Origin: an uncultured Anaerolineales bacterium
GTDB taxonomy: Bacteria; Chloroflexota; Anaerolineae; B4-G1
Assembly: GCA_964390305.1 (NCBI GenBank)
Contig: CAYMHT010000003.1
Span: forward strand, 10,270 to 74,269
Length of the DNA stretch: 64,000 nt
Direction of reading: 5' to 3'
The position numbers and the translations under genes were made by a program. Below are positions 9,517 to 22,909 of this stretch, one piece after another. Numbering within the stretch: position 1 is the first letter of the stretch; every line of letters begins with the position of its first letter. The notes under the pieces were generated by a model that worked only from the letters and a program-made list of their open reading frames with translations, made no database searches and was not told the DNA's origin.

Positions 9517-9708
9517 TGTCGCTGGCTGGTGCCACTTGCTGAGCCGGTAAGCGTGGGCCGCTTGCCCTTGCCTGGACAGCGGCTCGATCGCGCAGCCAGC
9601 TCACTCGAAAAAGGAGCTGTGAACGATCTGGCTGGAGAGCTTTTCTCAGATGCGAAAGGGAGAGCCTCCAGCCTTTTCGTTGCGCGATAGGGGAATAGGA
9701 GGTTGCGC

Positions 9709-11178
9709 ATGGGAAGCAAGCTGGAAGCTCCCGAGAAAGGATTGGTAGGCGGTCAGTATAAACCCCTGTCCGACGAGGAAGTACAACAGATACACGAGGC
9801 GTCGTTGCAGGTATTGGAGCGAACTGGCGTGCAGGTGGGTCAATCCGAAGCTCTGCAGTTGTTCGAGGACGCCGGGGCAGCCGTCGAGGAGGATCGCGTG
9901 CGGCTTCCGCGTTCGCTGATCGAGGACGCCATCGACAAGGCTGCCTCGACGGTTGTATTGGCCGGTCGCGATCCCGAACACGATCTGATCCTCGAGGACG
10001 CGCGCGTCTACATCGGGACCGGCGGCGCGGCGCTTCAGGTGCTGGATCTGGACACCGGCGAGATCCGTAAGGCGGTATTGGGAGACGTGGGCGACATGGC
10101 CCGCATCGTGGACGCTCTGGACAACATACATTTCTACCTGATCCCCATCTATCCTACCGATCTCCCTGAGGATCAGGTGGAGATCAGTAAGTACTACGCG
10201 GCACTGGCGAATACGACCAAGCACGTGCAGGCCGGCGTCTATACCCTGCGCGGGCTCCGCGACGTGGTGGCAATGTGCGAGGAGATCGCTGGTAGCCCCG
10301 AGGCACTGCGCGCCCGCCCTCTTGTCTCCTTCATCACCAGCTGGATGGTCAGCCCGCTGAAGTTCGCCACGGACGTAACGACGCTGCTCATCGAGACCTG
10401 TCGCCAAGAGATCCCCGTCGTCCTTTCGGCGGCACCGATGGCGGGATCGACCTCCCCGGTCACGCTGGCGGGCACGCTGGTTCAGTTGAACGCTGAGCAG
10501 CTGTCCGGTCTGACGCTGACCCAACTGGTCAACCCGGGGACGCCGGTGATCATGGGTCCGATTCCTGCCACCGCCGATATGCGCAGCGGCAAGTATCTGG
10601 GCGGCTCAGTGGAGTTAGGGATCAGCAACGCGGCCATCACCCAACTGGCTCATCTGTATCAAGTGCCCATCTACAACAGTGCCGGCATGACAGATTCGAA
10701 GGTTCCGGACATCCAGGCCGGGATCGAGAAGGCGCAGTCGGCCATCCAGGTGGCACTGGCGGGTACGAATTTCATCCATCACGCTGCCGGGATGCTGGAA
10801 GATATGTCGACCATCGCCTATGAACAGTTCGTGATCGACAACGAGATGCTGGGCATGGCGATGCGGGCCGTCCGGGGCATCGACGTTGACGACGACACGC
10901 TTGCGGTAGACGTGATCGGCCGGGTCGGCCCCGGTGGGCACTACTTGAGCGACGACCACACGCTGCGCTATATGCGGACCGAACACTACTACCCGTCGGA
11001 TGTCTTCGACCGCCAGGGGCGGGACGAGTGGGAGGCGGACGGCGAGACTGACGCCTGGCTCCGAGCCAAGGAAGCTGCGCGCAAGATCTTGACCGCGCAC
11101 GAGCCGGAGCCACTGGATCCGGAGGTTGATGCCTGGATCAAAGAGGAGTTTGCAGACACTCTAGTGCTACGAGAGTGA
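9709..11178 (+). CDS. MttB-superfamily methyltransferase, non-pyrrolysine (quaternary amine:corrinoid methyltransferase, MtgB-like)
   Basis: ~490 aa uninterrupted ORF with no in-frame amber, TIM-barrel MttB family (COG5598), paralogous to the next gene. ATG at 9709 follows RBS AGGAGG; an alternative TTG lies at 9703. Confidence 0.75.
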   Translation: MGSKLEAPEKGLVGGQYKPLSDEEVQQIHEASLQVLERTGVQVGQSEALQLFEDAGAAVEEDRVRLPRSLIEDAIDKAASTVVLAGRDPEHDLILEDARVYIGTGGAALQVLDLDTGEIRKAVLGDVGDMARIVDALDNIHFYLIPIYPTDLPEDQVEISKYYAALANTTKHVQAGVYTLRGLRDVVAMCEEIAGSPEALRARPLVSFITSWMVSPLKFATDVTTLLIETCRQEIPVVLSAAPMAGSTSPVTLAGTLVQLNAEQLSGLTLTQLVNPGTPVIMGPIPATADMRSGKYLGGSVELGISNAAITQLAHLYQVPIYNSAGMTDSKVPDIQAGIEKAQSAIQVALAGTNFIHHAAGMLEDMSTIAYEQFVIDNEMLGMAMRAVRGIDVDDDTLAVDVIGRVGPGGHYLSDDHTLRYMRTEHYYPSDVFDRQGRDEWEADGETDAWLRAKEAARKILTAHEPEPLDPEVDAWIKEEFADTLVLRE

Positions 11179-11295
11179 GTCGTGGTCAGCTGACGGTGTT
11201 AGGTCTTGGTCGTAGCGTGGGCTAAAGGTCAAGTGGGATTCATATCTCACGTGTCCCCTCGGGCCTCGCTTCCTACGATCTGGAGGTGATTTCTC

Positions 11296-12744
11296 GTGAC
11301 CGAGCAACTGCCGATTTCGACGTTGCACCCGTTCGCACGCGGCCTCTCCGGCGAACAGGTGCGGGAGATTCACTACGCCACGCTGGAGATTCTGTCCAAG
11401 ATCGGCGTGGATATGCAGGACGCGCAGGGGCGTGAGATACTCCTGGAGGCCGGCGCCTGGGAGTCCGGCGGTCGAATCAAGATACCGGAGAATCTGGTCA
11501 CAGATGCCATCGACGAGGCTCCGTCGCGCATACCGATGCACGATCGGCTGGGCAACCTGACCATGCCTTTGGAGCTGGGGAAGGTGTTCTTCGGGACCGG
11601 CTCCGATACGACGTTCACGCTCGACGTGCACACGGGCGAGCGCCGACGTGCGACGGCGCAGGACGTGGAGGACATCGCACGCCTGTCCGACGCGCTGGAC
11701 AACATCGACTTCATCATGTCGATGGGCAACCCGTCCGATGTGCCAGCAGACGATCTCTACATTCACGAGTTTGTGGGGATGATTCGGGGCTCGGTCAAGC
11801 CCAACGTGTACACGGCTAAGGATCGTGACGACGTGGAGGATGTCTATCGCATCGCCGTGGCCGTGGCGGGGAGCGAGCAGGCCCTGCGGGAGAAGCCCTT
11901 CTTCTTGCTCTATGCCGAGCCGATTTCGCCCCTGATGATCATCGAGGAGTCGTTGCAGAAGCTGATCTTCTGTGCCCAGAAAGGCGTCCCATCGGGGTAT
12001 ATCCCCTCGCCGAACACTGGGGGCGGTGGCCCGATCACCCTGGCCGGCGCTCTGGCGCTGGGCAACGCCGAATGCTTGGTCGGGCTGGTGATCGCCGAGT
12101 TGCTCAATCCAGGCACGCCCTACATCTACGGGATGAACACCGCGGCGATGGACATGAAGACCACTATCGTCAGCTATGGCAGCCCTGAGTGGCCGTTGGG
12201 GATGATGGCGCAGATGGATCTGGCGCGCTACTACAACTTGCCGGGATGGTCGGCGGCTGGGGCCACGGACAGCAAGGTCGTGGACGCACAGGCCGGGATC
12301 GAGATGACGTTCTCCATCCTGACCAACTTCCTCGCGCGTGCGACGCTGGTGCACGATGTGGGCTACATTGAGTATGGCTCCACATCCTCTATGGAGGCGG
12401 TGGTGATCGCCGACGAGGTCATCGGCGAGACGCGTTTCCTGGTCGAGGGTGTCGAGGTCAGCCCTCGTACGTTGGCGCTGGACGCCACGGCTCGGGTCCG
12501 GCCGGGCGGGGGCTACCTGTCCGACGATCATACACTTGAGCATTGGAGGTCGGCTCAGTGGCACCCAGACCTTGTCGACCGCGATCGACACGACGAGTGG
12601 GTGGAACGAGGGAGGCAGGATATGTTCACTCGGGCCAACGAGCGCGCAAGGAAAATCCTCGGAGAGCACGAGGTGCCGCCGCTGCCTGAGGAAGCCGAAG
12701 GGGTGATCGAGGAGATTCTGGAGGAGCGGGCGACCGATGGGTAG
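11296..12744 (+). CDS. MttB-superfamily methyltransferase, non-pyrrolysine (second paralog)
   Basis: 482 aa with a GTG start after RBS GGAGGTGA, collinear similarity to the upstream paralog (GGYLSDDHTL, DSKV.D.QAG). The 617-aa antisense ORF is rejected. Confidence 0.75.
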   Translation: MTEQLPISTLHPFARGLSGEQVREIHYATLEILSKIGVDMQDAQGREILLEAGAWESGGRIKIPENLVTDAIDEAPSRIPMHDRLGNLTMPLELGKVFFGTGSDTTFTLDVHTGERRRATAQDVEDIARLSDALDNIDFIMSMGNPSDVPADDLYIHEFVGMIRGSVKPNVYTAKDRDDVEDVYRIAVAVAGSEQALREKPFFLLYAEPISPLMIIEESLQKLIFCAQKGVPSGYIPSPNTGGGGPITLAGALALGNAECLVGLVIAELLNPGTPYIYGMNTAAMDMKTTIVSYGSPEWPLGMMAQMDLARYYNLPGWSAAGATDSKVVDAQAGIEMTFSILTNFLARATLVHDVGYIEYGSTSSMEAVVIADEVIGETRFLVEGVEVSPRTLALDATARVRPGGGYLSDDHTLEHWRSAQWHPDLVDRDRHDEWVERGRQDMFTRANERARKILGEHEVPPLPEEAEGVIEEILEERATDG

Positions 12745-12982
12745 AGATCGGTGTCCTCCTTCATATGCCGGGTCGCGACCAGTATACCTGGCACAGCAGG
12801 CGCAGGCAAGGGAAGCCTGGGCGGAGCGGGGTTCTGGTCGCTGGCGAGAGACGTCGACCAGAGGTTGAACGGCGGCTCCGCCAGGGTGGGCGCCTGTGAC
12901 CGCCAGGAAGGGCGCCCCTGCTGCGTCGCTTTCTCTCGTGGGTTGGCGCACCCATAGTGACACTGGAACGTCCAGGCCAAGC

Positions 12983-13050
12983 TTGACGAAAGGCATGCTT
13001 TGCGCTAGAATATGCTTCACGGGCAGGATATTTCTCCTGCCCGTTTATTG
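12983..13050 (+). promoter_or_regulatory. Promoter (TTGACG-N17-TAGAAT) followed by leader hairpin+U-tract upstream of rplY/ctc
   Basis: -35 at 12983-12988, -10 at 13006-13011. Hairpin GGGCAGGA-tatttc-TCCTGCCC at 13021-13042, then GTTTATTG, before the ATG at 13081. Confidence 0.4.
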
Positions 13051-13080: not shown

Positions 13081-13788
13081 ATGAGTCAGAAGGGCCGAGT
13101 TGAGCTAGAGGCGAAGAAACGATCCGTACTCGGCAGCAAGGTAAAGCGCCTGCGTCGACAGGGGTGGGTGCCCGGGGTCATGTACGGCCACGGTTTTGAG
13201 CCGATCCCTCTCCAGTTCGACAGACACGACTTGAAGGATGTCTTGTCGCAGATCGGCGGCAGTCAGCTGATCAACGTCAAGGTCGATGACGCGGACGAGG
13301 CGGAGTTTGCGCTGCTTCGTGACGTCCAGCGCGACGTCATCACGGGGGATTTGCTGCACGTTGACTTCTATCGCGTCATGATGAGCGAGACGATCACGAC
13401 TGAGATTCCGCTGTTGACCACGGGCGAGTCACCTGTTGCGGAGCGGAAGGAAGGCATTATGCTCCACGGCATCTCGGAGATTGAGGTTGAGTGTCTACCC
13501 GGTGATCTGGTAGATGCCATTGAGGTCGACCTGTCGGAGCTGACGGAGATTGGTCAGGCCATTCTGGTGAGCGACCTGGCGGTTCCGTCCGGGGTCGATA
13601 TTTTGACTGACCCTGATGAAGTGATCGCCCGTCTCGTGCCGCTGGAAGAGGTTGAGCTGGAGCGGCCGGCGGCAGAGGTCGAGGAAGAGCTGATCATGGC
13701 GGAAGAGGGTGAAGAAGTGGAGGTCATCGGTGAGGCTGAGGCTGAAGAGGCCGAGGAACCCGAAGAAGAGGTCAGAGACTACATGTAG
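13081..13788 (+). CDS. rplY: 50S ribosomal protein L25 / general stress protein Ctc (long form with acidic C-terminal tail)
   Basis: 235 aa. bL25/TL5 N-domain (VKRLRRQGWVPGVMYGHG...) plus a C-terminal beta-domain and a Glu-rich tail. Confidence 0.85.
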   Translation: MSQKGRVELEAKKRSVLGSKVKRLRRQGWVPGVMYGHGFEPIPLQFDRHDLKDVLSQIGGSQLINVKVDDADEAEFALLRDVQRDVITGDLLHVDFYRVMMSETITTEIPLLTTGESPVAERKEGIMLHGISEIEVECLPGDLVDAIEVDLSELTEIGQAILVSDLAVPSGVDILTDPDEVIARLVPLEEVELERPAAEVEEELIMAEEGEEVEVIGEAEAEEAEEPEEEVRDYM

Positions 13789-13832
13789 GGCGTCGAAGAC
13801 CAACGTGTGATTGTGGAACGGACGCGGATAAG

Positions 13833-13870
13833 GCGGAGACGGGGCTTCCCTGTCTCCGCTTTCTCGTCTC
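13833..13870 (+). terminator. Intrinsic terminator after rplY/ctc
   Basis: 12-bp GC-rich stem (GCGGAGACGGGG / CCCTGTCTCCGC), 4-nt loop, then TTTCTCGTCTC. Confidence 0.6.
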
Positions 13871-13928
13871 TGGCGGGTGTATCCGCACGTGTGGATGATG
13901 GACGCAGGCGTCGCTGAAGTCCGGCTGC

Positions 13929-13957
13929 TTGACACTGGTAGGCTAAACGTATAGAAT
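13929..13957 (+). promoter_or_regulatory. Sigma-70-type promoter of cbpA-htrA operon (TTGACA-N17-TAGAAT)
   Basis: Consensus -35 at 13929-13934 and -10 at 13952-13957, 25 nt upstream of cbpA. Confidence 0.5.
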
Positions 13958-13981
13958 GATTTCCCAAGGATAGGATGATGG

Positions 13982-14962
13982 ATGAAGTATAAGGACTACT
14001 ACGACACCCTCGGCGTTGGTCGCGACGCAAGTGAGCGAGACATCAAACAGGCCTTTCGACGGCTGGCTCGCCGGTGGCACCCCGACGTCAACCCCGACGA
14101 CAAAGAGGCTGAGGAGAAGTTCAAGGAGATCAACGAAGCCTACGAGGTACTGGGTGATCCAGACAAGCGGGCCAAGTATGACCGCTTGGGCCAGAGCTGG
14201 AAGCAGTGGCAGCGTGGCGGAGGTGATCCCGGGCGATACGACTGGTCCCAGTGGTTCACCGGCATGCCGGGTGGGGCGCGTGTCAAGTGGCGTGGCGATC
14301 TGAGTGATCTCTTTGGGGGCTCGGGCGCTGGAGCGTTCTCCGATTTTTTCAACGCCCTGTTTGGAGGAATGGGCGGGGCGCGGGTCCGGACAGCCGAGGA
14401 CGTTTTCGGACGTGCGCCAGGGGCCCGTGGTTATCGGGGTAGTTCTGGATCCGGGGATGCCGAGGCCAACGTCACGATTAGCCTGGAGGAGGCACTGAAC
14501 GGCACCAGCCGGGTCCTGGAGAAGAGCGGGCGCCGGATTCGTGTGACGATACCTCCTGGTGTGACGACCGGGTCCAAGGTGCGCGTCGCTGGGCAGGGGT
14601 ATCCGCGCGCGGGCGGGGGCCCGACTGGTGATCTCTATCTCAACGTGACCGTAAGTCCTCACGCTGTCTTCGAACGCGAAGGCGACGATCTTCGCTGCAA
14701 TGTCAATGTCGATCTCTACACCGCCGTGTTGGGCGGTCAGGTGCGTGTGCCCACGCTCAACGGCGACGTCTCGCTGAGGGTCCCTCCCGGGACCCAGGGT
14801 GGGCAGACGTTCAGGCTCCGCGGCAGGGGCATGCCGAACTCCCGCGACCCGAGCCGGCGAGGGAACCTTCTGGCGACCGTGGAGGTGCAGATTCCGGAAA
14901 ATCTGAGCGCCCGTGAGCGAGAGCTCTTCGATGAGCTCGTGCGTATTAGGGGAAGGAGATAA
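13982..14962 (+). CDS. cbpA: DnaJ-family co-chaperone lacking the zinc-finger repeat (CbpA-like)
   Basis: J domain (YYDTLGV...HPDVN...[14 protein letters not shown]), a G-rich linker, DnaJ C-terminal domains, and no CxxCxGxG repeats. Confidence 0.8.
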
Positions 14963-14964
14963 GA

Positions 14965-16140
14965 ATGAGAGCAGAGAGGCGTCTCCTGCTTCTCCTGGCA
15001 CTCGTGGTCCTGCCTACACTGGCTTGCAGGGCCCAGCAGCTTGTGTTTGAGCCCACCCCGTTGGCGTCACCTTCGACGCCTTCGTCTTCTGCCGTAGTCC
15101 CCACGGCCACGCCACTCTCGGACGAGGAACTGGCGGAGGTAGATGCGCAGGATGCTTTGCTCATCAATCTTTACGAACGGGTCAACCCTGCTGTGGTCTA
15201 CATTGAGGTTCTTCTGGAGCAGGGGGGTGGTGTGCGGCCGCTGGGTAGTGGGTCCGGTTTCATAGTCGACCGAGAGGGACATATCGTCACAAATAGCCAC
15301 GTGGTCGAGAATGCCGACGCGCTTCAGGTCACCTTCTACGACGGTACAGTGACGCATGGCGCCGAGGTGGTGGGCCGTGACTCCTACTCCGACATCGCGG
15401 TGATCAAGGTCGACGTCCCTTCCGAGCGTCTGCGACCCCTGGAGTTGGGCGATTCGGACGAGCTCAAGGTAGGTCAGCGGGTGGTTGCCATCGGCAACCC
15501 GTTCGGCCTGCAAGGGACGATGACCGCCGGCGTGGTCAGCGCCGTGGGGCGCACACTGACCTCGCAGATTCTGCAGGGCGGGGCGTTCTCCAATCCCGAG
15601 ATCATCCAGACCGACGCGTCGATTAACCCGGGTAACTCTGGCGGGCCTCTGCTCGATTCGCGAGGACGCGTCGTTGGCGTGAACACTGCTATTCGCTCGG
15701 CGACAGGGCTGAACGCCGGGGTTGGATTCGCCGTGCCGGTAAACACCGTCAAGCGGATCATGCCTGACCTGATCGAGAAGGGGGCATACGACTATCCGTA
15801 TCTCGGCATCACCTCCGACCGGAATTTCGCCGTGGCCGAGCTGGCTGAACCGTTGGGGCTGTCCGTGGACCACGGGGTGCTCGTCGCTGAGGTTCAGCCC
15901 GGTACCGCTGCTGCCGAGGCCGGCCTGCAGGGAGGGGATCGCGAGGTCGAGGTCATGGGGCAGTCGCTCGTTGCCGGCGGTGACATTATCATCGCGATCG
16001 ATGGTGAGGAGCTCTGGACCTTCGATGACCTGGTCGCCTATCTCGTGAGCGACACGGAGGTCGGGCAGGAGGTGACGCTGACCGTCATCCGTGGCGAGGA
16101 GCAGATGGAAGTCTCAGTGACGCTGGGAAAGAGGCCTTGA
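14965..16140 (+). CDS. htrA: HtrA/DegP-family serine protease with PDZ domain
   Basis: Signal/TM N-terminus, trypsin-like catalytic motifs (HVVE..., D..., GNSGGPL) and a C-terminal PDZ domain. Starts 3 nt after the cbpA stop. Confidence 0.85.
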   Translation: MRAERRLLLLLALVVLPTLACRAQQLVFEPTPLASPSTPSSSAVVPTATPLSDEELAEVDAQDALLINLYERVNPAVVYIEVLLEQGGGVRPLGSGSGFIVDREGHIVTNSHVVENADALQVTFYDGTVTHGAEVVGRDSYSDIAVIKVDVPSERLRPLELGDSDELKVGQRVVAIGNPFGLQGTMTAGVVSAVGRTLTSQILQGGAFSNPEIIQTDASINPGNSGGPLLDSRGRVVGVNTAIRSATGLNAGVGFAVPVNTVKRIMPDLIEKGAYDYPYLGITSDRNFAVAELAEPLGLSVDHGVLVAEVQPGTAAAEAGLQGGDREVEVMGQSLVAGGDIIIAIDGEELWTFDDLVAYLVSDTEVGQEVTLTVIRGEEQMEVSVTLGKRP

Positions 16141-16210: not shown

Positions 16211-17320
16211 ATGTTGGATCGAGACGACTTGCGCGAGCTTGCAGCATACAGAGCTGAGGCACCGGTGTTGAGCGTCTATCTGAATGTCGACCCTACGGAT
16301 CGCACGCGGGATGAATACAGGCTCGAGTTGCGGCAGATGCTGAAGGAGGCCCAGGGAATGGCTGCTGCCGAGGACGTTGAGGCGGTGGAGGCGTTCTTCG
16401 ACCATGAGTACGATTGGTCAGGCCGCGGAGCGGCCGTGTTCTCGTGTCAGGAGACGGGTTTCTGGCGCGCGTACTCTTTGGCTATGCCGGTCCCCTCCGG
16501 TGTGACGGTGGCTCATCGGCCTTATATCACCCCGCTGGCGGAGCTCGTCGATGCTTACGGGAGCTACGCCGTGGCGATTGTGGATCGACGTCAGGCGCGG
16601 CTGTTCTTGTTTGATCTGGGCGAGTTGCGAGCCAGTGACGAGTTCGTTGGTGAAGATGTGCGTAAGTTGAAGCGGGGGCGGGGGTCCTCCGGTGGGCACG
16701 GTCGCCGGGGCGGTGCTCCGATTTCGAGTCAGCATGAGGAAGAGGTCGTGAGACGAAATATCCGCGATGCGGTTCAGGTGATCGAGTCGTTCTGTCAGGA
16801 CCACGAGCCTCAACGCCTGGTCATCGGGGGTTCTGACCGGATGGTGGTCAGGTTTCAGGAGGCACTGCCCAAGCATCTCCAGGATAGAGTGATCGGCACA
16901 TTTAGCGCCGACATGAATGCACCAGAGCCGGAGATAAGAGAGCGCTCGCTGGAGATTTTGCAGCAGGTCGAGGAGGGGCGCAAGGAGGCCGTTGTAGATG
17001 CCGTGTTCACCGCCGCGGCGAAGGGCAGCAATGGCGTGATTCGCCTGGCGGACACTCTGGGTGCCGCCCACGAGGGCCGGGTTCAGACACTGGTGATCGA
17101 TCGTCACTATCACGAGCCTGGCTATCAGTGCGAGCACTGCGGCTATATCACCGATCATCCTCTGAAGAAGTGTCCTTTCTGCGGAGGCGACTTCATGGAG
17201 ATCCCCGACGCCGCTGAGGCCCTGGTTACGAAAGTGATCGAGGAGGGGGGCGAGGTCGAGGTGGTGGACGATAACCCGAAAGCGAAGGAGTTTGGAGTGG
17301 GGGCGCTGCTGCGGTACTAG
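16211..17320 (+). CDS. eRF1/Pelota-like (baeRF1-type) protein with C-terminal zinc ribbon; function unknown
   Basis: 369 aa. The central segment KRGRGSSGGHGRRGG...EEVVRRNIRDAVQV resembles the eRF1/Pelota central-domain loop (KHGRGGQSA..RF.RLR...VRKVAE), with Gln replaced. C-terminal CEHCGY-X11-CPFCGG treble-clef. Confidence 0.5.
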   Translation: MLDRDDLRELAAYRAEAPVLSVYLNVDPTDRTRDEYRLELRQMLKEAQGMAAAEDVEAVEAFFDHEYDWSGRGAAVFSCQETGFWRAYSLAMPVPSGVTVAHRPYITPLAELVDAYGSYAVAIVDRRQARLFLFDLGELRASDEFVGEDVRKLKRGRGSSGGHGRRGGAPISSQHEEEVVRRNIRDAVQVIESFCQDHEPQRLVIGGSDRMVVRFQEALPKHLQDRVIGTFSADMNAPEPEIRERSLEILQQVEEGRKEAVVDAVFTAAAKGSNGVIRLADTLGAAHEGRVQTLVIDRHYHEPGYQCEHCGYITDHPLKKCPFCGGDFMEIPDAAEALVTKVIEEGGEVEVVDDNPKAKEFGVGALLRY

Positions 17321-17420
17321 CTGTCCTCTCCCCCGTTGAGGGTAGAGAAGGTATGGCGTCGGACGTGTGCTGATCGGTCGGTGGCGCGCACCGCTTGATC
17401 CGGGTGCAGGCAGCAAACCT

Positions 17421-17452
17421 AAAGGGCCGCTAATGCGGCCCTTTACGCGTTT
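17421..17452 (+). terminator. Intrinsic terminator after eRF1-like gene
   Basis: AAAGGGCCGC-taat-GCGGCCCTTT hairpin followed by ACGCGTTTC. Confidence 0.6.
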
Positions 17453-17578
17453 CAGAGGGGCAATCCTCATATAGAAATCCAATGCAACGCTAACGGCGCT
17501 CTAATGGAGACTGGGTATGATCTGAGTGGAAGCATCATGCGTTTGTGTCACGTTCTTATCTTGTCTTGAATATACCGT

Positions 17579-17610
17579 ACTCTGCAAACGATGGGACGTC
17601 TTGCAGAGAG
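17579..17610. promoter_or_regulatory. Inverted repeat (ACTCTGCAA-N13-TTGCAGAG) in clpB upstream region
   Basis: 8-9 bp perfect palindrome arms, 37 nt upstream of the clpB start; candidate operator. Confidence 0.35.
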
Positions 17611-17646
17611 TTTTAGTGTTTCTAGTCTAGTTGGTGGGTGGTTCTT

Positions 17647-20244
17647 ATGAATCTAAACAGGTTCACCCAGAAGGCCCAAGAGGCCGTGATGGAAGCCCAG
17701 TCGTTGGCGGGCAAGTATGACCACGGCCAGATCGAACCGGGGCACCTGCTTCTTGCGCTGCTACGCCAGTCCGAGGGGATCGTGCCGCAGGTTGTCCAGA
17801 AGCTGGAGGCCAACCCCCGGGAGATGGCGCTGTCGCTGGAGGGCGAGCTGAAGAAGAAGCCCAAGATCCGCGGCGCGGCGGCGCAGGTTGGGATGTCGCG
17901 CCAGTTGGGTCGGGTCCTGGAAGAGGCGGAGAACGCCGCCAGGCGAATGCGCGACGAGTACGCCAGCACCGAGCATCTGTTGCTGGCGCTGACCGGTACG
18001 ACAGGCGGCGATGCGGCCCGCTTCCTCGCGGCCTACGGCGTCACGGAGGATGCCGTGCTGCGTGCACTGACCTCGATTCGAGGGAGTCAGCGCGTCACGA
18101 GTCAACATCCAGAGGCGACGTACCAGGCGTTGGAGAAGTACGGTCGCGACATGACTCAGCTGGCTCGGGAAGGGAAGCTGGACCCTGTGATTGGGCGCGA
18201 TGAGGAGATACGGCGTGTGATGCGCATCCTCAATCGTCGCACCAAGAACAACCCGGTTCTGGTTGGAGAGGCTGGCGTGGGTAAGACCGCGATTGCCGAG
18301 GGGCTGGCGCAGCGGATCGCTCGCGGTGATGTACCGGAAGGGTTGAAGAGCAAGCGCATCATTGAGCTCGATATGGGCGCTTTGGTCGCTGGCGCCAAGT
18401 ATCGTGGCGAGTTCGAGGAGCGCCTCAAGGCTGTACTCAAAGAGGTGACGGAGGCTGCGGGTCAGATCATCCTGTTTATCGACGAGTTGCACACCGTGGT
18501 CGGTGCTGGAGCAGCTGAGGGCGCCGTCGACGCGGGCAACATGTTGAAGCCGAAGCTGGCACGCGGTGAGCTTCACGCCATTGGCGCGACGACCCTTGAC
18601 GAGTACCGGAAGTACATTGAGAAGGATGCGGCCCTCGAACGCCGGTTCCAGCCAGTCTACATCGATGAACCATCGGTGGAGGATACAGTCAGCATCCTCC
18701 GCGGGCTCAAGGAGCGCTACGAGGTCCACCACGGCGTACGTATCAAGGATTCGGCCTGCATCGCGGCCGCTACGCTCGGTGATCGGTATATCGCCGATCG
18801 CCAGCTGCCCGACAAGGCAATCGACTTGATCGACGAGGCAGCCTCCCGGCTGCGCATGGAGATCGACTCCAAGCCATCCGAGCTCGATGAGGTTGATCGG
18901 CACATCATGCAGCTCGAGATTGAGCGTGAGGCGCTCAAGAAGGAGGACGAGGAGGCGAGCCGAGAGCGTCTCGAGAACCTGGAGAGGGAACTCGCCAATC
19001 TCGAGGAGAGGCGGAAGGCGCTGCGCGCCCGCTGGGAGGAGGAGAAGAGGGCGATTCAGGCGGTGCGGCAGACGAAAGAAGAGATCGATCGGGTTCGTCA
19101 CCGGATCGAGGAGGCTCAGCGTGCCCACGACTACGAGCGAGCCTCGGAGCTGCAGTACGGTCGTCTGTCTGAGCTGGAGAAGCAACTGAAGACTCACGAG
19201 CAGCGGCTGAACGACCTCCAGGAGGATGGCGCGATGCTGAAGGAGGAGGTGGGCTCGGAGGAGATCGCTGAGGTTGTCTCTGAGTGGACCGGCATCCCTG
19301 TGTCCAAGCTGCTGGAGGGCGAGCGAGAGCGGTTGCTCCGCATGGAAGAGGCGCTGCACCGGCGCGTGGTGGGCCAGGACGAGGCGGTTGAGGCGGTGTC
19401 GAACGCCGTCCGCCGTGCACGGGCTGGCTTGCAGGATCCAGACCGGCCGATTGGCACGTTCATCTTCCTGGGTCCTACCGGGGTGGGGAAGACGGAGCTG
19501 GCACGAGCGCTGGCTGAGTTTCTCTTCGATACGGAGGAGGCGTTGATCCGTATCGACATGAGCGAGTACCAGGAGCGTCACACGGTGTCCCGACTCATCG
19601 GTGCACCGCCCGGATACGTGGGATACGAGGAGGCGGGTCAGCTGACCGAAGCGGTCCGTCGCCGGCCTTACAGCGTGGTGCTGTTCGACGAGATCGAGAA
19701 AGCCCATCCGGAGGTCTTCAATACGCTCTTGCAGCTGCTCGACGAGGGCCGGCTTACGGACGGTCAGGGGCGGACGGTCGACTTCCGCAATACGATCGTC
19801 ATCATGACGAGCAACGTCGGCAGCCGCTGGATAAAGGATCTGGGCATCGAGGAGGCTCGGGATAAGGTGATGGAGGAACTGGATCGCATCTTCCGGCCGG
19901 AGTTCCTGAACCGCATCGACGAGATCATTCTCTTCCGCAGCTTGACCAAGGAGGATCTGCGCAAGATCGTTGATATTCAGATGCGCCGGCTGCGTGCTCT
20001 GCTGGAGGAGCGCAAGATGGCGCTGGAGCTGACGGACGAGGCGCGTCGGCACCTGGCCGAGGCTGGCTATGACCCGGTCTACGGCGCCCGACCGTTGAAG
20101 CGTGTCATCCAGCGTCAGGTGCAGGATCCGCTGGCGCTTTCGCTCTTGCGCGGTGAATTCGACGAGGGCGATACGGTGCGCTTGGAGGCACCCGACGGTG
20201 ACATCAGGTTCGAGAGGGCAGAGGCAGAACCAGTTCCGGCGTAG
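17647..20244 (+). CDS. clpB: ClpB disaggregase (AAA+ chaperone, long M-domain)
   Basis: Clp_N repeats, two AAA+ modules with Walker A GEAGVGKT / GPTGVGKT, and a long coiled-coil M-domain. N-terminus is [11 protein letters not shown]; the in-frame GTG at 17638 is a possible alternative start. Confidence 0.9.
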
Positions 20245-20258
20245 GGTTGACGTCAAAC

Positions 20259-20301
20259 GGCACCGGGGCCGCGAATGCCGCGCTCCGGTGCCTGTTTCTT
20301 T
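20259..20301 (+). terminator. Intrinsic terminator after clpB
   Basis: GGCACCGG...CCGGTGCC stem with a GC-rich inner stem, followed by TGTTTCTTT. Confidence 0.55.
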
Positions 20302-20328
20302 GTCCGATGAGGGGTTCTGGGGTATAAT
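20300..20328 (+). promoter_or_regulatory. Sigma-70-type promoter of clpC-like gene (TTGTCC-N17-TATAAT)
   Basis: -35 at 20300-20305 and perfect -10 TATAAT at 20323-20328, ~80 nt upstream of the start. Confidence 0.45.

Positions 20329-20407: not shown

Positions 20408-22909
<2,502 letters not shown>

What the first reader, a model, noticed from the sequence alone, without database searches (positions are those of the whole stretch)
16211..17320. Uncharacterised eRF1/Pelota-like protein (GGQ replaced by GGHG) with C-terminal zinc ribbon, last gene of a cbpA-htrA operon beside clpB/clpC
The 369-aa ORF has a central segment (VGEDVRKLKRGRGSSGGHGRRGG...HEEEVVRRNIRDAVQVIE) that matches the loop architecture of the eRF1/Pelota central domain (KHGRGGQSALRFARLR...VRKVAE). 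The catalytic Gln is not conserved (GGH/GG instead of GGQ). A treble-clef CxxC-X11-CxxC zinc ribbon sits in the C-terminal domain. This places it in the little-studied bacterial eRF1-like (baeRF1) radiation, for which no function has been demonstrated. It ends an apparent DnaJ-like/HtrA operon and sits one terminator away from tandem clpB and clpC. That context suggests a ribosome-rescue or nascent-chain quality-control factor that hands clients to proteases and disaggregases. The sequence similarity is seen directly; the function is inference.
Basis: partly seen in the sequence, partly recalled or inferred. Interest (0 to 1): 0.78.

Follow-up and report, generated by a model that had tools for sequence, protein, structure and literature searches.

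The report
Balon-type ribosome hibernation factor gene
The ORF is a real eRF1-like protein without a catalytic GGQ, but it belongs to the Balon family, whose members were shown in 2024 to park in the ribosomal A site and put ribosomes to sleep, so it is a new Chloroflexota member of a known family and not an uncharacterised rescue factor.

Summary
The 369-aa ORF at 16211-17320 (+) is real. It has more than 1,300 homologues.

What it is:
- It belongs to Pfam baeRF_family10 (E 4e-30). Mycobacterium smegmatis Msmeg1130, a Balon factor solved by cryo-EM on the ribosome, is in the same Pfam family.
- Its AlphaFold model (pLDDT 95) superposes on ribosome-bound Msmeg1130 at TM 0.83. The TM-score is about 0.5 for aRF1/eRF1 and 0.41 or less for Pelota/Dom34.
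- GGQ and NIKS are absent.

- The GGQ-equivalent residues are G156-R157-G158, not 'GGH'.
- H163 is the one hypervariable position in a clade-specific Gly/Arg loop (GRGSSGGxGRRGG) that is otherwise nearly invariant.
- The zinc ribbon is CxxC-X10-CxxC. It is the ancestral aRF1 zinc ribbon and sits where Msmeg1130 and Rv2629 carry a cysteine-free insert.

Context:
- The order dnaJ-like, htrA, Balon-like is conserved in 39 of 43 Chloroflexota loci, behind a conserved sigma-70-type promoter.
- The HtrA is a secreted lipoprotein, so a direct ribosome-to-protease hand-off is unlikely.
- clpB/clpC adjacency holds only in close relatives.

Most likely function: a non-catalytic A-site hibernation factor co-expressed with proteostasis genes.

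Verdict: new member of a known kind, with modest interest.

The parts
13827..13865 (+). Hairpin after the bL25/Ctc gene (13081-13788). Likely terminator that separates bL25 from the operon.
   Evidence: 18-nt arms, 83% complementary, followed by TTTCTCGTCT.
13929..13957 (+). Sigma-70-type promoter of the dnaJ-like/htrA/Balon-like operon (TTGACA-N17-TAGAAT).
   Evidence: 11 of 12 consensus matches. The same TTGACA-N17-TATAGAAT/TATAAAAT element is found upstream of the dnaJ-like gene in 21 of 25 related loci.
13982..14962 (+). Class B J-domain co-chaperone (CbpA/DnaJ-like, no Zn-finger domain). First gene of the operon.
   Evidence: Pfam DnaJ 2.4e-28 and DnaJ_C 1.9e-46, with no DnaJ_CXXCXGXG hit. 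Below all NCBIfam equivalog cutoffs.
14965..16140 (+). HtrA/DegP-family serine protease with PDZ domain, signal peptide and lipobox Cys (extracytoplasmic). Second gene, 2 nt after dnaJ-like.
   Evidence: Trypsin_2 2.9e-36 and PDZ_2. N-terminus is MRAERRLLLLLALVVLPTLAC. Most of the 23 orthologue N-termini examined show the same signal peptide ending in a lipobox-type Cys (..LAC..TAC..AGC..PGC or ..MSC); two mis-called starts (L023, L031) were uninformative.
16211..17320 (+). Balon-family (baeRF-1 family 10) aeRF1-like protein, 369 aa. Third and last gene, 70 nt after htrA, RBS GGGG(T)GA.
16211..16525 (+). N-terminal domain (res 1-105), aRF1-like but without NIKS.
   Evidence: In the profile alignment to aRF1 4af1, the aRF1 'SNIKS' falls opposite the non-conserved family segment 'eeele'. 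No NIKS/NIKL string occurs. P. urativorans Balon 'REHPAND' aligns to the window's 'VDPTDR'.
16526..16957 (+). Middle (RNase-H-like release-factor) domain (res 106-249).
   Evidence: PF18854 covers residues 104-249. AF2 secondary structure.
16658..16735 (+). GGQ-equivalent loop (res 150-175): VRKLKRGRGSSGGHGRRGGAPISSQH. G156-R157-G158 (16676-16684) occupies the GGQ/GGW position. Residues 162-170 are a clade-specific insertion.
   Evidence: Family and aRF1 alignments. Mean identity 0.88 across 118 close relatives, with R151, K154, G156, R157, G158, G164, R165 and R166 invariant, S159, G167 and G168 at 117 of 118, and H163 hypervariable. It is the only lower-confidence stretch of the model, with 10-residue block means of pLDDT 71 and 62.
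16958..17317 (+). C-terminal (Pelota/eRF1_3-type) domain (res 250-369), ending in the conserved GVGALLRY.
   Evidence: Aligns to the C domains of Msmeg1130, Rv2629, aRF1 and eRF1.
17120..17203 (+). Zinc ribbon insert (res 304-331): C307-x2-C310-x10-C321-x2-C324.
   Evidence: All four Cys are invariant in 118 close relatives. The motif is present in 109 of 122 full-length 50%-cluster representatives. It aligns with the ZnR of aRF1 4af1 and with the cysteine-free insert of Msmeg1130 and Rv2629. Beta-strands at 304-307 and 327-331.
17420..17445 (+). Perfect 11-bp hairpin (TAAAGGGCCGC/GCGGCCCTTTA) about 100 nt after the stop codon. Likely operon terminator, with a weak T tract.
   Evidence: The terminator scan did not flag it, because the tail has fewer than 5 T in 8 nt.
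17638..20244 (+). ClpB disaggregase. A separate transcription unit downstream.
   Evidence: TIGR03346, 1377.8 bits, above the cutoff of 1232.1.
20408..22909 (+). ClpC-like class-I Hsp100 AAA+ protein with its own promoter-like site at 20300-20328.
   Evidence: Pfam Clp_N, AAA, AAA_lid_9, AAA_2 and ClpB_D2-small. Below all NCBIfam equivalog cutoffs. Promoter-like site.

Best explanation
The ORF encodes a Balon-type ribosome hibernation factor. It is an aeRF1-derived, catalytically dead A-site ligand of the 70S ribosome.

By homology with the solved Balon complexes, the domains are inferred to act as follows:
- The N domain contacts the decoding centre without reading mRNA (no NIKS).
- The middle domain places its conserved Gly/Arg-rich loop (GRGSSGGxGRRGG, the descendant of the GGQ loop) against 23S rRNA beside the peptidyl-transferase centre. 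It does not hydrolyse peptidyl-tRNA.
- The C domain faces the factor-binding site. There its intact zinc ribbon occupies the insertion site at which Msmeg1130 and Rv2629 carry a cysteine-free insert. That insert is inferred, not shown, to be the EF-Tu(GDP)-contacting beta-loop described for Balon.

The gene is co-transcribed from a conserved sigma-70-type promoter with a class-B J-domain co-chaperone and a secreted HtrA lipoprotein. In close relatives it lies next to clpB/clpC. So it is probably made together with the proteostasis machinery and silences and protects ribosomes when protein folding is under stress.

Shown here: fold, family membership, loss of GGQ and NIKS, conservation of the loop and zinc ribbon, operon conservation.

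Inferred: ribosome binding, EF-Tu contact, stress induction.
For: - Family: Pfam baeRF_family10 4.1e-30. Msmeg1130, a cryo-EM-validated Balon, scores 124.7 bits in the same Pfam family.
- NCBIfam: the best hits are the three 'ribosome hibernation factor' families. MSMEG_1130 family 7.8e-32 over the full length (2-369 against 3-387/387), Rv2629 family 1.1e-22, AOC03_06830 family 2.2e-13.
- PDB sequence search: single sequence, 8v9j_z Balon 4e-7. Profile of 123 homologues: Msmeg1130 3e-40, then aRF1 4af1 3.7e-30, Rv2629 1e-23, eRF1 about 3e-20, P. urativorans Balon 4e-13, Pelota 3.6e-11.
- Structure: AF2 model pLDDT 95.2, pTM 0.88. Foldseek gives Msmeg1130 on the ribosome TM 0.83 at 3.8 A, Rv2629 0.76, P. 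urativorans Balon 0.68-0.71, aRF1/eRF1 about 0.5, Pelota/Dom34 0.21-0.41.
- Motifs: GGQ is replaced by GRG (family GGW; Rv2629 has AGW at that position). NIKS is absent. The loop is the best-conserved segment of the protein.
- Context: dnaJ-like, htrA, Balon-like order in 39 of 43 Chloroflexota loci, down to 28-47% identity, with a conserved promoter.
- Literature: Balon genes are reported in stress operons that include DnaJ, DnaK and Hsp20 (PMC10901736). A 30%-identical cyanobacterial homologue is also seen natively on hibernating ribosomes (bioRxiv 10.64898/2026.07.03.736309).
Against: - No experiment exists on this protein or on any Chloroflexota homologue.
- It scores far below the NCBIfam equivalog cutoffs (110.7 against 480 bits), so it is not an orthologue of any validated Balon. 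Identity to Msmeg1130 is only about 20%.
- The 'HP motif' of Balon could not be located with certainty. The position that aligns with P. urativorans 'EHPAND' is D27-P28 here (weak alignment, E about 1).
- The zinc ribbon and the Gly/Arg insertion are absent from all solved Balons, so EF-Tu and PTC contacts may differ.
- The promoter is housekeeping-type. No CIRCE element was found, so stress induction is inferred from gene content only.
- No RaiA/HPF gene is adjacent, whereas RaiA is the most frequent Balon neighbour in the literature.
Confidence: 0.7

Rival explanations
1. Pelota/Dom34-like rescue or nascent-chain quality-control factor. It would recognise stalled ribosomes non-catalytically, promote their clearance, and couple the nascent chain to the co-encoded J-protein, HtrA and the neighbouring ClpB/ClpC.
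For: - The operon link with a J-domain co-chaperone is strongly conserved (39 of 43 loci).
- ClpB and a ClpC-like protein lie downstream in 18 of 43 loci.
- Balon itself can bind ribosomes that still carry peptidyl-tRNA (PMC10901736), so a link to nascent chains is conceivable.
- Burroughs & Aravind 2019 proposed Dom34-like roles for baeRF-1 (PMC6514570).
Against: - HtrA is an extracytoplasmic lipoprotein, so it cannot receive cytosolic nascent chains.
- The clpB/clpC adjacency disappears in relatives below about 67% identity.
- Distant family-10 members in other phyla have unrelated neighbours.
- The fold is much closer to Balon (TM 0.83) than to Pelota/Dom34 (0.41 or less).
- No ABCE1-like splitting partner is known in bacteria (general knowledge).
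- Validated members of the same Pfam family stabilise ribosomes; they do not clear them.
Confidence: 0.15
2. Catalytically active peptidyl-tRNA hydrolase or alternative release factor. RefSeq names the Thermoflexus homologues 'Vms1/Ankzf1 family peptidyl-tRNA hydrolase', and Burroughs & Aravind flagged family 10 as possibly active.
For: - RefSeq name of the 48%-identical Thermoflexus protein.
- The family-10 consensus loop HKQGGWSQ resembles the GGxSQ motif of the aVLRF-1/acVLRF-1 families, and the 2019 paper notes a conserved Gln in family 10.
- The loop is under strong constraint.
Against: - In the window protein and all 118 close relatives the loop is GRGSS, with no Gln at the GGQ, the preceding KQ or the following SQ positions. 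The only loop Gln, Q174, alternates with Arg (R67/Q50).
- The Pfam acVLRF1 model does not hit this protein at E of 0.01 or better.
- TIGR03676 aRF1 scores 31 bits against a cutoff of 234.7.
- NIKS is absent.
- Msmeg1130, from the same Pfam family, inhibits translation on the ribosome without releasing peptide (PMC10901736).
Confidence: 0.05
3. Non-ribosomal protein, for example the 'host attachment protein' (PF10116) or 'rubrerythrin' annotations given by some sources.
For: PF10116 Host_attach 1.6e-8. Source names 'host attachment protein' and 'rubrerythrin'.
Against: - PF10116 overlaps the same middle domain and scores far lower than PF18854 (35.7 against 105.4 bits).
- The rubredoxin-like hit is only the 21-aa zinc knuckle and lies below cutoff (19.8 against 26.5 bits).
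- The full-length three-domain fold matches A-site factors.
Confidence: 0.03

Closest known systems
Balon, Msmeg1130 type (M. smegmatis MSMEG_1130; PDB 8V9J/8V9L; NCBIfam NF052288; Pfam PF18854 baeRF_family10)
   Same: - Same Pfam family.
- Full-length three-domain alignment.
- Best structural match, TM 0.83 to the ribosome-bound conformation.
- No GGQ and no NIKS.
- Conserved C-terminal G-x-G/A-A-L/V-LR-Y/W motif.
   Different: - About 20% identity, and 110.7 bits against the 480-bit equivalog cutoff.
- Msmeg1130 has a cysteine-free insert where this protein has a four-Cys zinc ribbon.
- The Msmeg1130 loop (FGQAPQERAGQMREQRQ) has no Gly/Arg-rich GRGSSGGxGRRGG motif.
- Genomic context differs: hypoxia-induced gene (Msmeg1130; PMC10901736) against the dnaJ-htrA operon (here).
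Balon of Psychrobacter urativorans (AOC03_06830; PDB 8RD8/8RDV/8RDW) and Rv2629 of M. tuberculosis (PDB 8V9K; Pfam baeRF_family2)
   Same: - Same superfamily and fold (TM 0.68-0.76).
- A-site-factor architecture lacking GGQ and NIKS.
- Rv2629 shares the loop framework HK..(A/G)GW....QH..EE with this protein's wider family.
   Different: - Different Pfam/NCBIfam subfamilies.
- Neither has a zinc ribbon.
- P. urativorans Balon has 'EHP' where this protein has 'VDP'.
- They typically neighbour RaiA, according to the paper.
Archaeal class-I release factor aRF1 (e.g. Halobacterium 4AF1; TIGR03676)
   Same: - Homologous over all three domains (profile E 3.7e-30).
- The zinc ribbon sits at the same insertion point in the C domain.
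- The family loop PkrHKQGGWSQ aligns residue for residue with aRF1 PGKHKMGGQSQ.
   Different: - GGQ becomes GRG (family GGW), and NIKS is lost.
- TIGR03676 scores 31 bits against a cutoff of 234.7.
- TM only about 0.5, because the domain arrangement differs.
- Bacterial host that has its own RF1/RF2 (general knowledge).
Pelota/Dom34 and Vms1/ANKZF1 (VLRF-1)
   Same: Same aeRF1 superfamily middle and C domains. Pelota is likewise non-catalytic.
   Different: - Weaker sequence match (3.6e-11) and structure match (TM 0.41 or less).
- The N domain is aRF1-like, not the Sm-like Pelota N domain.
- No VLRF1 Pfam hit and no GxxQ/GGxSQ Gln.

Membership tests
Balon / baeRF-1 ribosome hibernation factors | aeRF1-like three-domain fold closest to solved Balon structures | tested here: met
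   AF2 pLDDT 95.2. Foldseek top six hits are all Balon chains, TM 0.68-0.83, against about 0.5 for aRF1/eRF1.
Balon / baeRF-1 ribosome hibernation factors | Sequence-family membership shared with an experimentally validated Balon | tested here: met
   PF18854 gives 105.4 bits for the ORF and 124.7 bits for Msmeg1130. Profile against PDB gives Msmeg1130 at 3e-40.
Balon / baeRF-1 ribosome hibernation factors | Orthology to a validated Balon (NCBIfam equivalog cutoffs NF052288 / NF052289 / NF052287) | tested here: not met
   110.7 against 480, 80.8 against 320, and 50.5 against 330 bits. It is a distinct subfamily, not an equivalog.
Balon / baeRF-1 ribosome hibernation factors | Absence of the GGQ motif in the middle domain | tested here: met
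   The GGQ-equivalent is G156-R157-G158. No conserved Gln occurs in the loop across 118 close relatives.
Balon / baeRF-1 ribosome hibernation factors | Absence of the NIKS stop-codon motif in the N domain | tested here: met
   No NIKS/NIKL in the sequence. aRF1 'SNIKS' aligns to a non-conserved helix-loop segment.
Balon / baeRF-1 ribosome hibernation factors | HP motif in an N-terminal insertion that contacts A1492/A1913 | tested here: inconclusive
   P. urativorans 'THREHPANDQDP' aligns weakly (E about 1) with the window's 'NVDPTDRTRDE'. That gives D27-P28 here (invariant in the 118 close relatives; in the 123-sequence family alignment D27 is 86 of 123 and P28 is 57 of 123), and Msmeg1130 also has 'ADP'. 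The paper gives no residue numbers in the text held.
Balon / baeRF-1 ribosome hibernation factors | Lasso loop and bL27 trap in the middle domain | not testable with these tools
   A conserved basic Gly/Arg loop is present at the GGQ-loop position. Whether it wraps A2602 or traps bL27 needs a ribosome complex.
Balon / baeRF-1 ribosome hibernation factors | Beta-hairpin/beta-loop insertion in the C domain that contacts EF-Tu(GDP) | tested here: inconclusive
   An insert is present at the same site but as an intact CxxC-X10-CxxC zinc ribbon. It aligns with the cysteine-free inserts of Msmeg1130 and Rv2629. Burroughs & Aravind regard the two-strand insert as a degenerate ZnR. Whether that insert is the EF-Tu-contacting beta-loop of the Balon paper is assumed, and EF-Tu contact was not tested.
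Balon / baeRF-1 ribosome hibernation factors | Binds the ribosomal A site and inhibits translation | not testable with these tools
   Needs biochemistry or cryo-EM.
Class-I release factor aRF1/eRF1 | GGQ catalytic motif, NIKS/YxCxxxF codon-recognition motifs, TIGR03676 cutoff | tested here: not met
   GRG instead of GGQ, no NIKS, and 31.2 bits against a cutoff of 234.7.
Pelota/Dom34 | Sm-like N domain with loop A, and best fold match to Pelota | tested here: not met
   Pelota profile hits cover only the middle and C domains (query positions 160-299). TM 0.21-0.41.
Vms1/ANKZF1 (VLRF-1) peptidyl-tRNA hydrolases | VLRF1 domain with a conserved catalytic Gln (GxxQ / GGxSQ) | tested here: not met
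   No PF18859 hit for the window protein at E of 0.01 or better. The loop is GRGSS with no Gln.

The most novel reading that the evidence does not exclude
The Chloroflexota clade would be a mechanistically distinct Balon variant. Its intact zinc ribbon (in place of the cysteine-free insert of solved Balons, presumed to be the EF-Tu-contacting beta-loop) and its invariant RGG-like loop would give it a different mode of engaging the factor-binding site and the peptidyl-transferase centre, possibly zinc- or redox-sensitive. Its obligatory operon link to a class-B J-protein would reflect a physical coupling between pausing of translating ribosomes and chaperoning of the nascent chain during proteotoxic stress.
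Probability: 0.12. Interest if true: 0.6.

Novelty: new member of a known kind. Interest (0 to 1): 0.3.

Why it matters
It corrects a likely annotation error. Public records call these proteins 'host attachment protein', 'rubrerythrin', 'eRF1' or 'Vms1/Ankzf1 family peptidyl-tRNA hydrolase'.

It also extends the Balon hibernation-factor family into Anaerolineae and Thermoflexia, with three features worth noting for people who study ribosome hibernation:
- A retained ancestral zinc ribbon at the site presumed to contact EF-Tu.
- A strictly conserved Gly/Arg loop replacing the GGQ/GGW loop.
- A phylum-specific, deeply conserved dnaJ-htrA-balon operon.

None of this changes the current picture of what the family does.

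Tried and rejected
1. 'GGH replaces GGQ'. Rejected after aligning 123 family representatives and intermediates (P0130, P0139, P0136, P0128, P0122, then the window). The first K(Q/R)GG stays in register and the second RGG arises inside an insertion. H163 is hypervariable.
2. 'G-rich loop is a low-complexity linker'. Rejected, because it is the most conserved segment.
3. HrcA/CIRCE control. No CIRCE match in the window with up to 3 mismatches.
4. Inverted repeat CTCTGCAA-N13-TTGCAGAG upstream of clpB as a conserved operator. No exact match in any of the 47 fetched loci, so it was dropped.
5. Generality of the dnaJ/htrA link beyond Chloroflexota. Two distant family-10 members have unrelated neighbours: P0214, next to a SurA-like PPIase and a PRTase, and P0200 from Calditrichota, next to SNO/SNZ and NUDIX.
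6. Looking for Chloroflexi entries in the Balon paper's supplementary datasets. The two files held as text had no occurrences of the search terms.
7. Exact look-up of the window protein's contig. Not on record.
8. Literature search for zinc-ribbon Balon variants. None found.
9. The antisense ORFs (16418-17482, 354 aa; 11167-13020, 617 aa) were treated as GC-rich shadow ORFs. The 617-aa one has no Pfam hit, and the opposite strand there encodes a conserved MttB paralogue.
Full report
**Observation.** The ORF at 16211-17320 (+) exists and encodes 369 aa. It is a real gene. A word-indexed search found 1,367 proteins at E of 1e-5 or better. The best 120 are almost all 369 aa, 67-100% identical, and where a source names the organism it is an Anaerolineae/Chloroflexota MAG. 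An exhaustive HMMER scan of 1.84 billion cluster representatives found 3,346 at E of 1e-3 or better and 252 at 1e-30 or better. The antisense ORF 16418-17482 is treated as a GC-rich shadow ORF.

**What it is.**
- Pfam places residues 104-249 in baeRF_family10 (PF18854, 4.1e-30).
- The best NCBIfam hits are the three 'ribosome hibernation factor' families built around Balon. MSMEG_1130 family scores 7.8e-32 and aligns end to end, Rv2629 family 1.1e-22, and AOC03_06830 (P. urativorans Balon) 2.2e-13. All are far below the equivalog cutoffs. aRF1 TIGR03676 scores only 31 bits.
- Against PDB sequences, the single protein hits only the two mycobacterial Balon chains.
- A profile of 123 homologues (alignment A1) hits Msmeg1130 at 3e-40, then aRF1 4af1 at 3.7e-30, Rv2629 at 1e-23, eRF1 at about 3e-20, P. 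urativorans Balon at 4e-13 and Pelota at 3.6e-11.
- I rebuilt the Msmeg1130 sequence from that alignment. It is itself a member of PF18854 (124.7 bits), while Rv2629 is family 2. So the window protein shares its Pfam family with a factor whose ribosome-bound structure is solved.

**Structure.** AlphaFold2 with A1 gives pLDDT 95.2 and pTM 0.88. Only the 150-170 loop is less confident. In Foldseek against the PDB, the six best hits are all Balon chains:
- Msmeg1130 on the 70S: TM 0.83 (8v9l) and 0.81 (8v9j), rmsd 3.7-3.8 A.
- Rv2629: TM 0.76.
- P. urativorans Balon: TM 0.68-0.71.
- aRF1/eRF1: about 0.5.
- Pelota/Dom34: 0.21-0.41.

**The loop.** The family consensus P-k-r-H-K-Q-G-G-W-S-Q-a-r-l-Q-R-H-i-E-E aligns residue for residue with aRF1 PGKHKMGGQSQRRYERIIEQ. 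The GGQ Gln is therefore a Trp in most of the family (72 of 123), and Rv2629 has AGW at that position.

In the window protein those three positions are G156-R157-G158. A 9-residue insertion (GHGRRGGAP, 162-170) follows and is found only in its own clade. A series of intermediate sequences keeps the first K(Q/R)GG in register and grows the second RGG inside the insertion.

Across 118 close relatives the loop is the best-conserved part of the protein, with mean identity 0.88 against 0.71-0.80 for the domains. The only loop Gln, Q174, alternates with Arg. So this is a constrained, strongly basic RNA-binding-type loop. It is not a linker, and it has no candidate catalytic Gln.

**The zinc ribbon.** The motif is C307-x2-C310-x10-C321-x2-C324, which is X10 and not X11. 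All four Cys are invariant in the close clade, and the motif is present in 109 of 122 full-length representatives down to about 26% identity. It aligns with the Cys/His zinc ribbon of Halobacterium aRF1 (4af1) and with the cysteine-free inserts of Msmeg1130 and Rv2629.

Burroughs & Aravind (PMC6514570) already described this. The aeRF-1 Pelota domain carries a ZnR insert, which many baeRF-1 families replace with a two-strand insert, 'conceivably a degenerate ZnR'. The Balon paper describes a unique beta-hairpin/beta-loop in the C domain as part of the EF-Tu(GDP) contact. That this beta-loop is the same element as the two-strand insert, and that the window's zinc ribbon plays that role, are inferences.

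**Context.**
- Layout: bL25/Ctc (13081-13788), then a hairpin (13827-13865), then the promoter TTGACA-N17-TAGAAT (13929-13957, 11 of 12 matches). Next come the class-B J-protein (13982-14962), a 2-nt gap, HtrA (14965-16140), a 70-nt gap, and the Balon-like gene. A perfect 11-bp hairpin follows (17420-17445), then clpB (17638-20244) and a ClpC-like gene (20408-22909).
- Synteny: in 43 genome loci from Anaerolineales, Thermoflexales and other Chloroflexota MAGs, tblastn finds the order dnaJ-like, htrA, Balon-like in 39. This includes loci where the Balon-like protein is only 28-47% identical. bL25 upstream and clpB/clpC downstream are seen only among the closer relatives, with clpB in 18 of 43.
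- Promoter: the promoter element is conserved in 21 of 25 loci examined.
- Limits of the link: two distant family-10 members from other phyla have unrelated neighbours, so the link is specific to Chloroflexota.
- HtrA location: the HtrA has a signal peptide ending in a lipobox-type Cys in the window and in most of the orthologues examined, so it acts outside the cytoplasm. That argues against a direct hand-off from the ribosome to this protease.
- Regulation: no CIRCE element was found. Stress regulation is therefore inferred from gene content and from the literature statement that Balon genes sit in stress operons, including ones with DnaJ, DnaK and Hsp20.

**Mechanism (inference from homology).** The protein most likely binds the A site of 70S ribosomes independently of mRNA, as Balon does. 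It would keep the peptidyl-transferase centre inert with its basic loop and contact EF-Tu(GDP) or the stalk region through the C domain and zinc ribbon. This would preserve ribosomes while the co-expressed chaperone and protease deal with misfolded proteins. Balon homologues as divergent as 30% identity keep this role in Actinobacteria, Gammaproteobacteria and Cyanobacteria (PMC10901736; bioRxiv 10.64898/2026.07.03.736309).

Rivals are a Pelota-like rescue factor, an active hydrolase (as the RefSeq name 'Vms1/Ankzf1 family peptidyl-tRNA hydrolase' for the Thermoflexus homologue implies), and a non-ribosomal protein. All are less well supported, for the reasons given in the rivals section.

**Novelty and score.** The family was catalogued in 2019, and its function was established in 2024 for members of the same Pfam family. 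What is new here is a Chloroflexota subfamily with an intact zinc ribbon, a distinctive invariant Gly/Arg loop, and a deeply conserved dnaJ-htrA-balon operon. It is a new member of a known kind, of modest interest (0.3).

Noticed in passing
window 10687-10786 (+), inside ORF 9703-11178: Rfam PYLIS_3 (pyrrolysine insertion sequence of mttB) scores 41.5 bits, above the gathering score of 38. It lies inside an MttB-family gene that is an uninterrupted 491-aa ORF with no in-frame TAG. A second MttB paralogue lies at 11296-12744. This is probably a non-Pyl MttB homologue whose coding sequence resembles the PYLIS region.
   Followed up: partly
L043 8001-8744, L041 5225-6019, L042 8001-8696: Anaerolinea-type MAGs carry a 247-aa two-domain version of the Balon-like protein (N and middle domains only, no C domain or zinc ribbon). 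It sits in the same dnaJ-htrA operon and is followed directly by a convergent gene. The presumed EF-Tu-facing domain therefore seems dispensable in that lineage.
   Followed up: partly
P0271-P0276 (Thermoflexus sp., 48% identical homologues): RefSeq names these proteins 'Vms1/Ankzf1 family peptidyl-tRNA hydrolase'. Other sources call close relatives 'host attachment protein', 'rubrerythrin', 'rRNA maturation endonuclease Nob1' or 'eRF1'. None reflects the Balon relationship, and the hydrolase name is probably an over-annotation.
   Followed up: partly
window 13929-13960 and upstream of the dnaJ-like gene in L001-L034: A near-consensus promoter with an unusually conserved extended -10 region (..TTA(C/G)(C/G)GTATAGAATGA) is retained across loci whose proteins are only about 47-87% identical. 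This suggests selection on more than the two hexamers, possibly an overlapping operator.
   Followed up: no
window 17580-17608 and 13881-13896: A perfect 8-bp inverted repeat, CTCTGCAA-N13-TTGCAGAG, lies just upstream of clpB. A palindrome, ATCCGCACGTGTGGAT, lies upstream of the dnaJ-like promoter. The first has no exact counterpart in the 47 fetched loci.
   Followed up: partly
window 13081-13788 (+): The gene directly upstream is the long bL25/Ctc 'general stress protein' form of ribosomal protein L25, with an acidic C-terminal tail. It is adjacent to the operon in 22 of the 43 fetched loci, all among the closer relatives (L001-L031).
   Followed up: no
window 16658-16735 (loop residues 150-175): From memory, the basic Gly-rich loop (LKRGRGSSGGHGRRGG; family HKQGGWSQ) resembles the N-terminal tail of ribosomal protein bL27 (AHKKAGGSTRNGRDS in E. 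coli), which reaches the peptidyl-transferase centre and is sequestered by Balon's 'bL27 trap'. This is an untested resemblance and may simply reflect PTC-binding composition.
   Followed up: no
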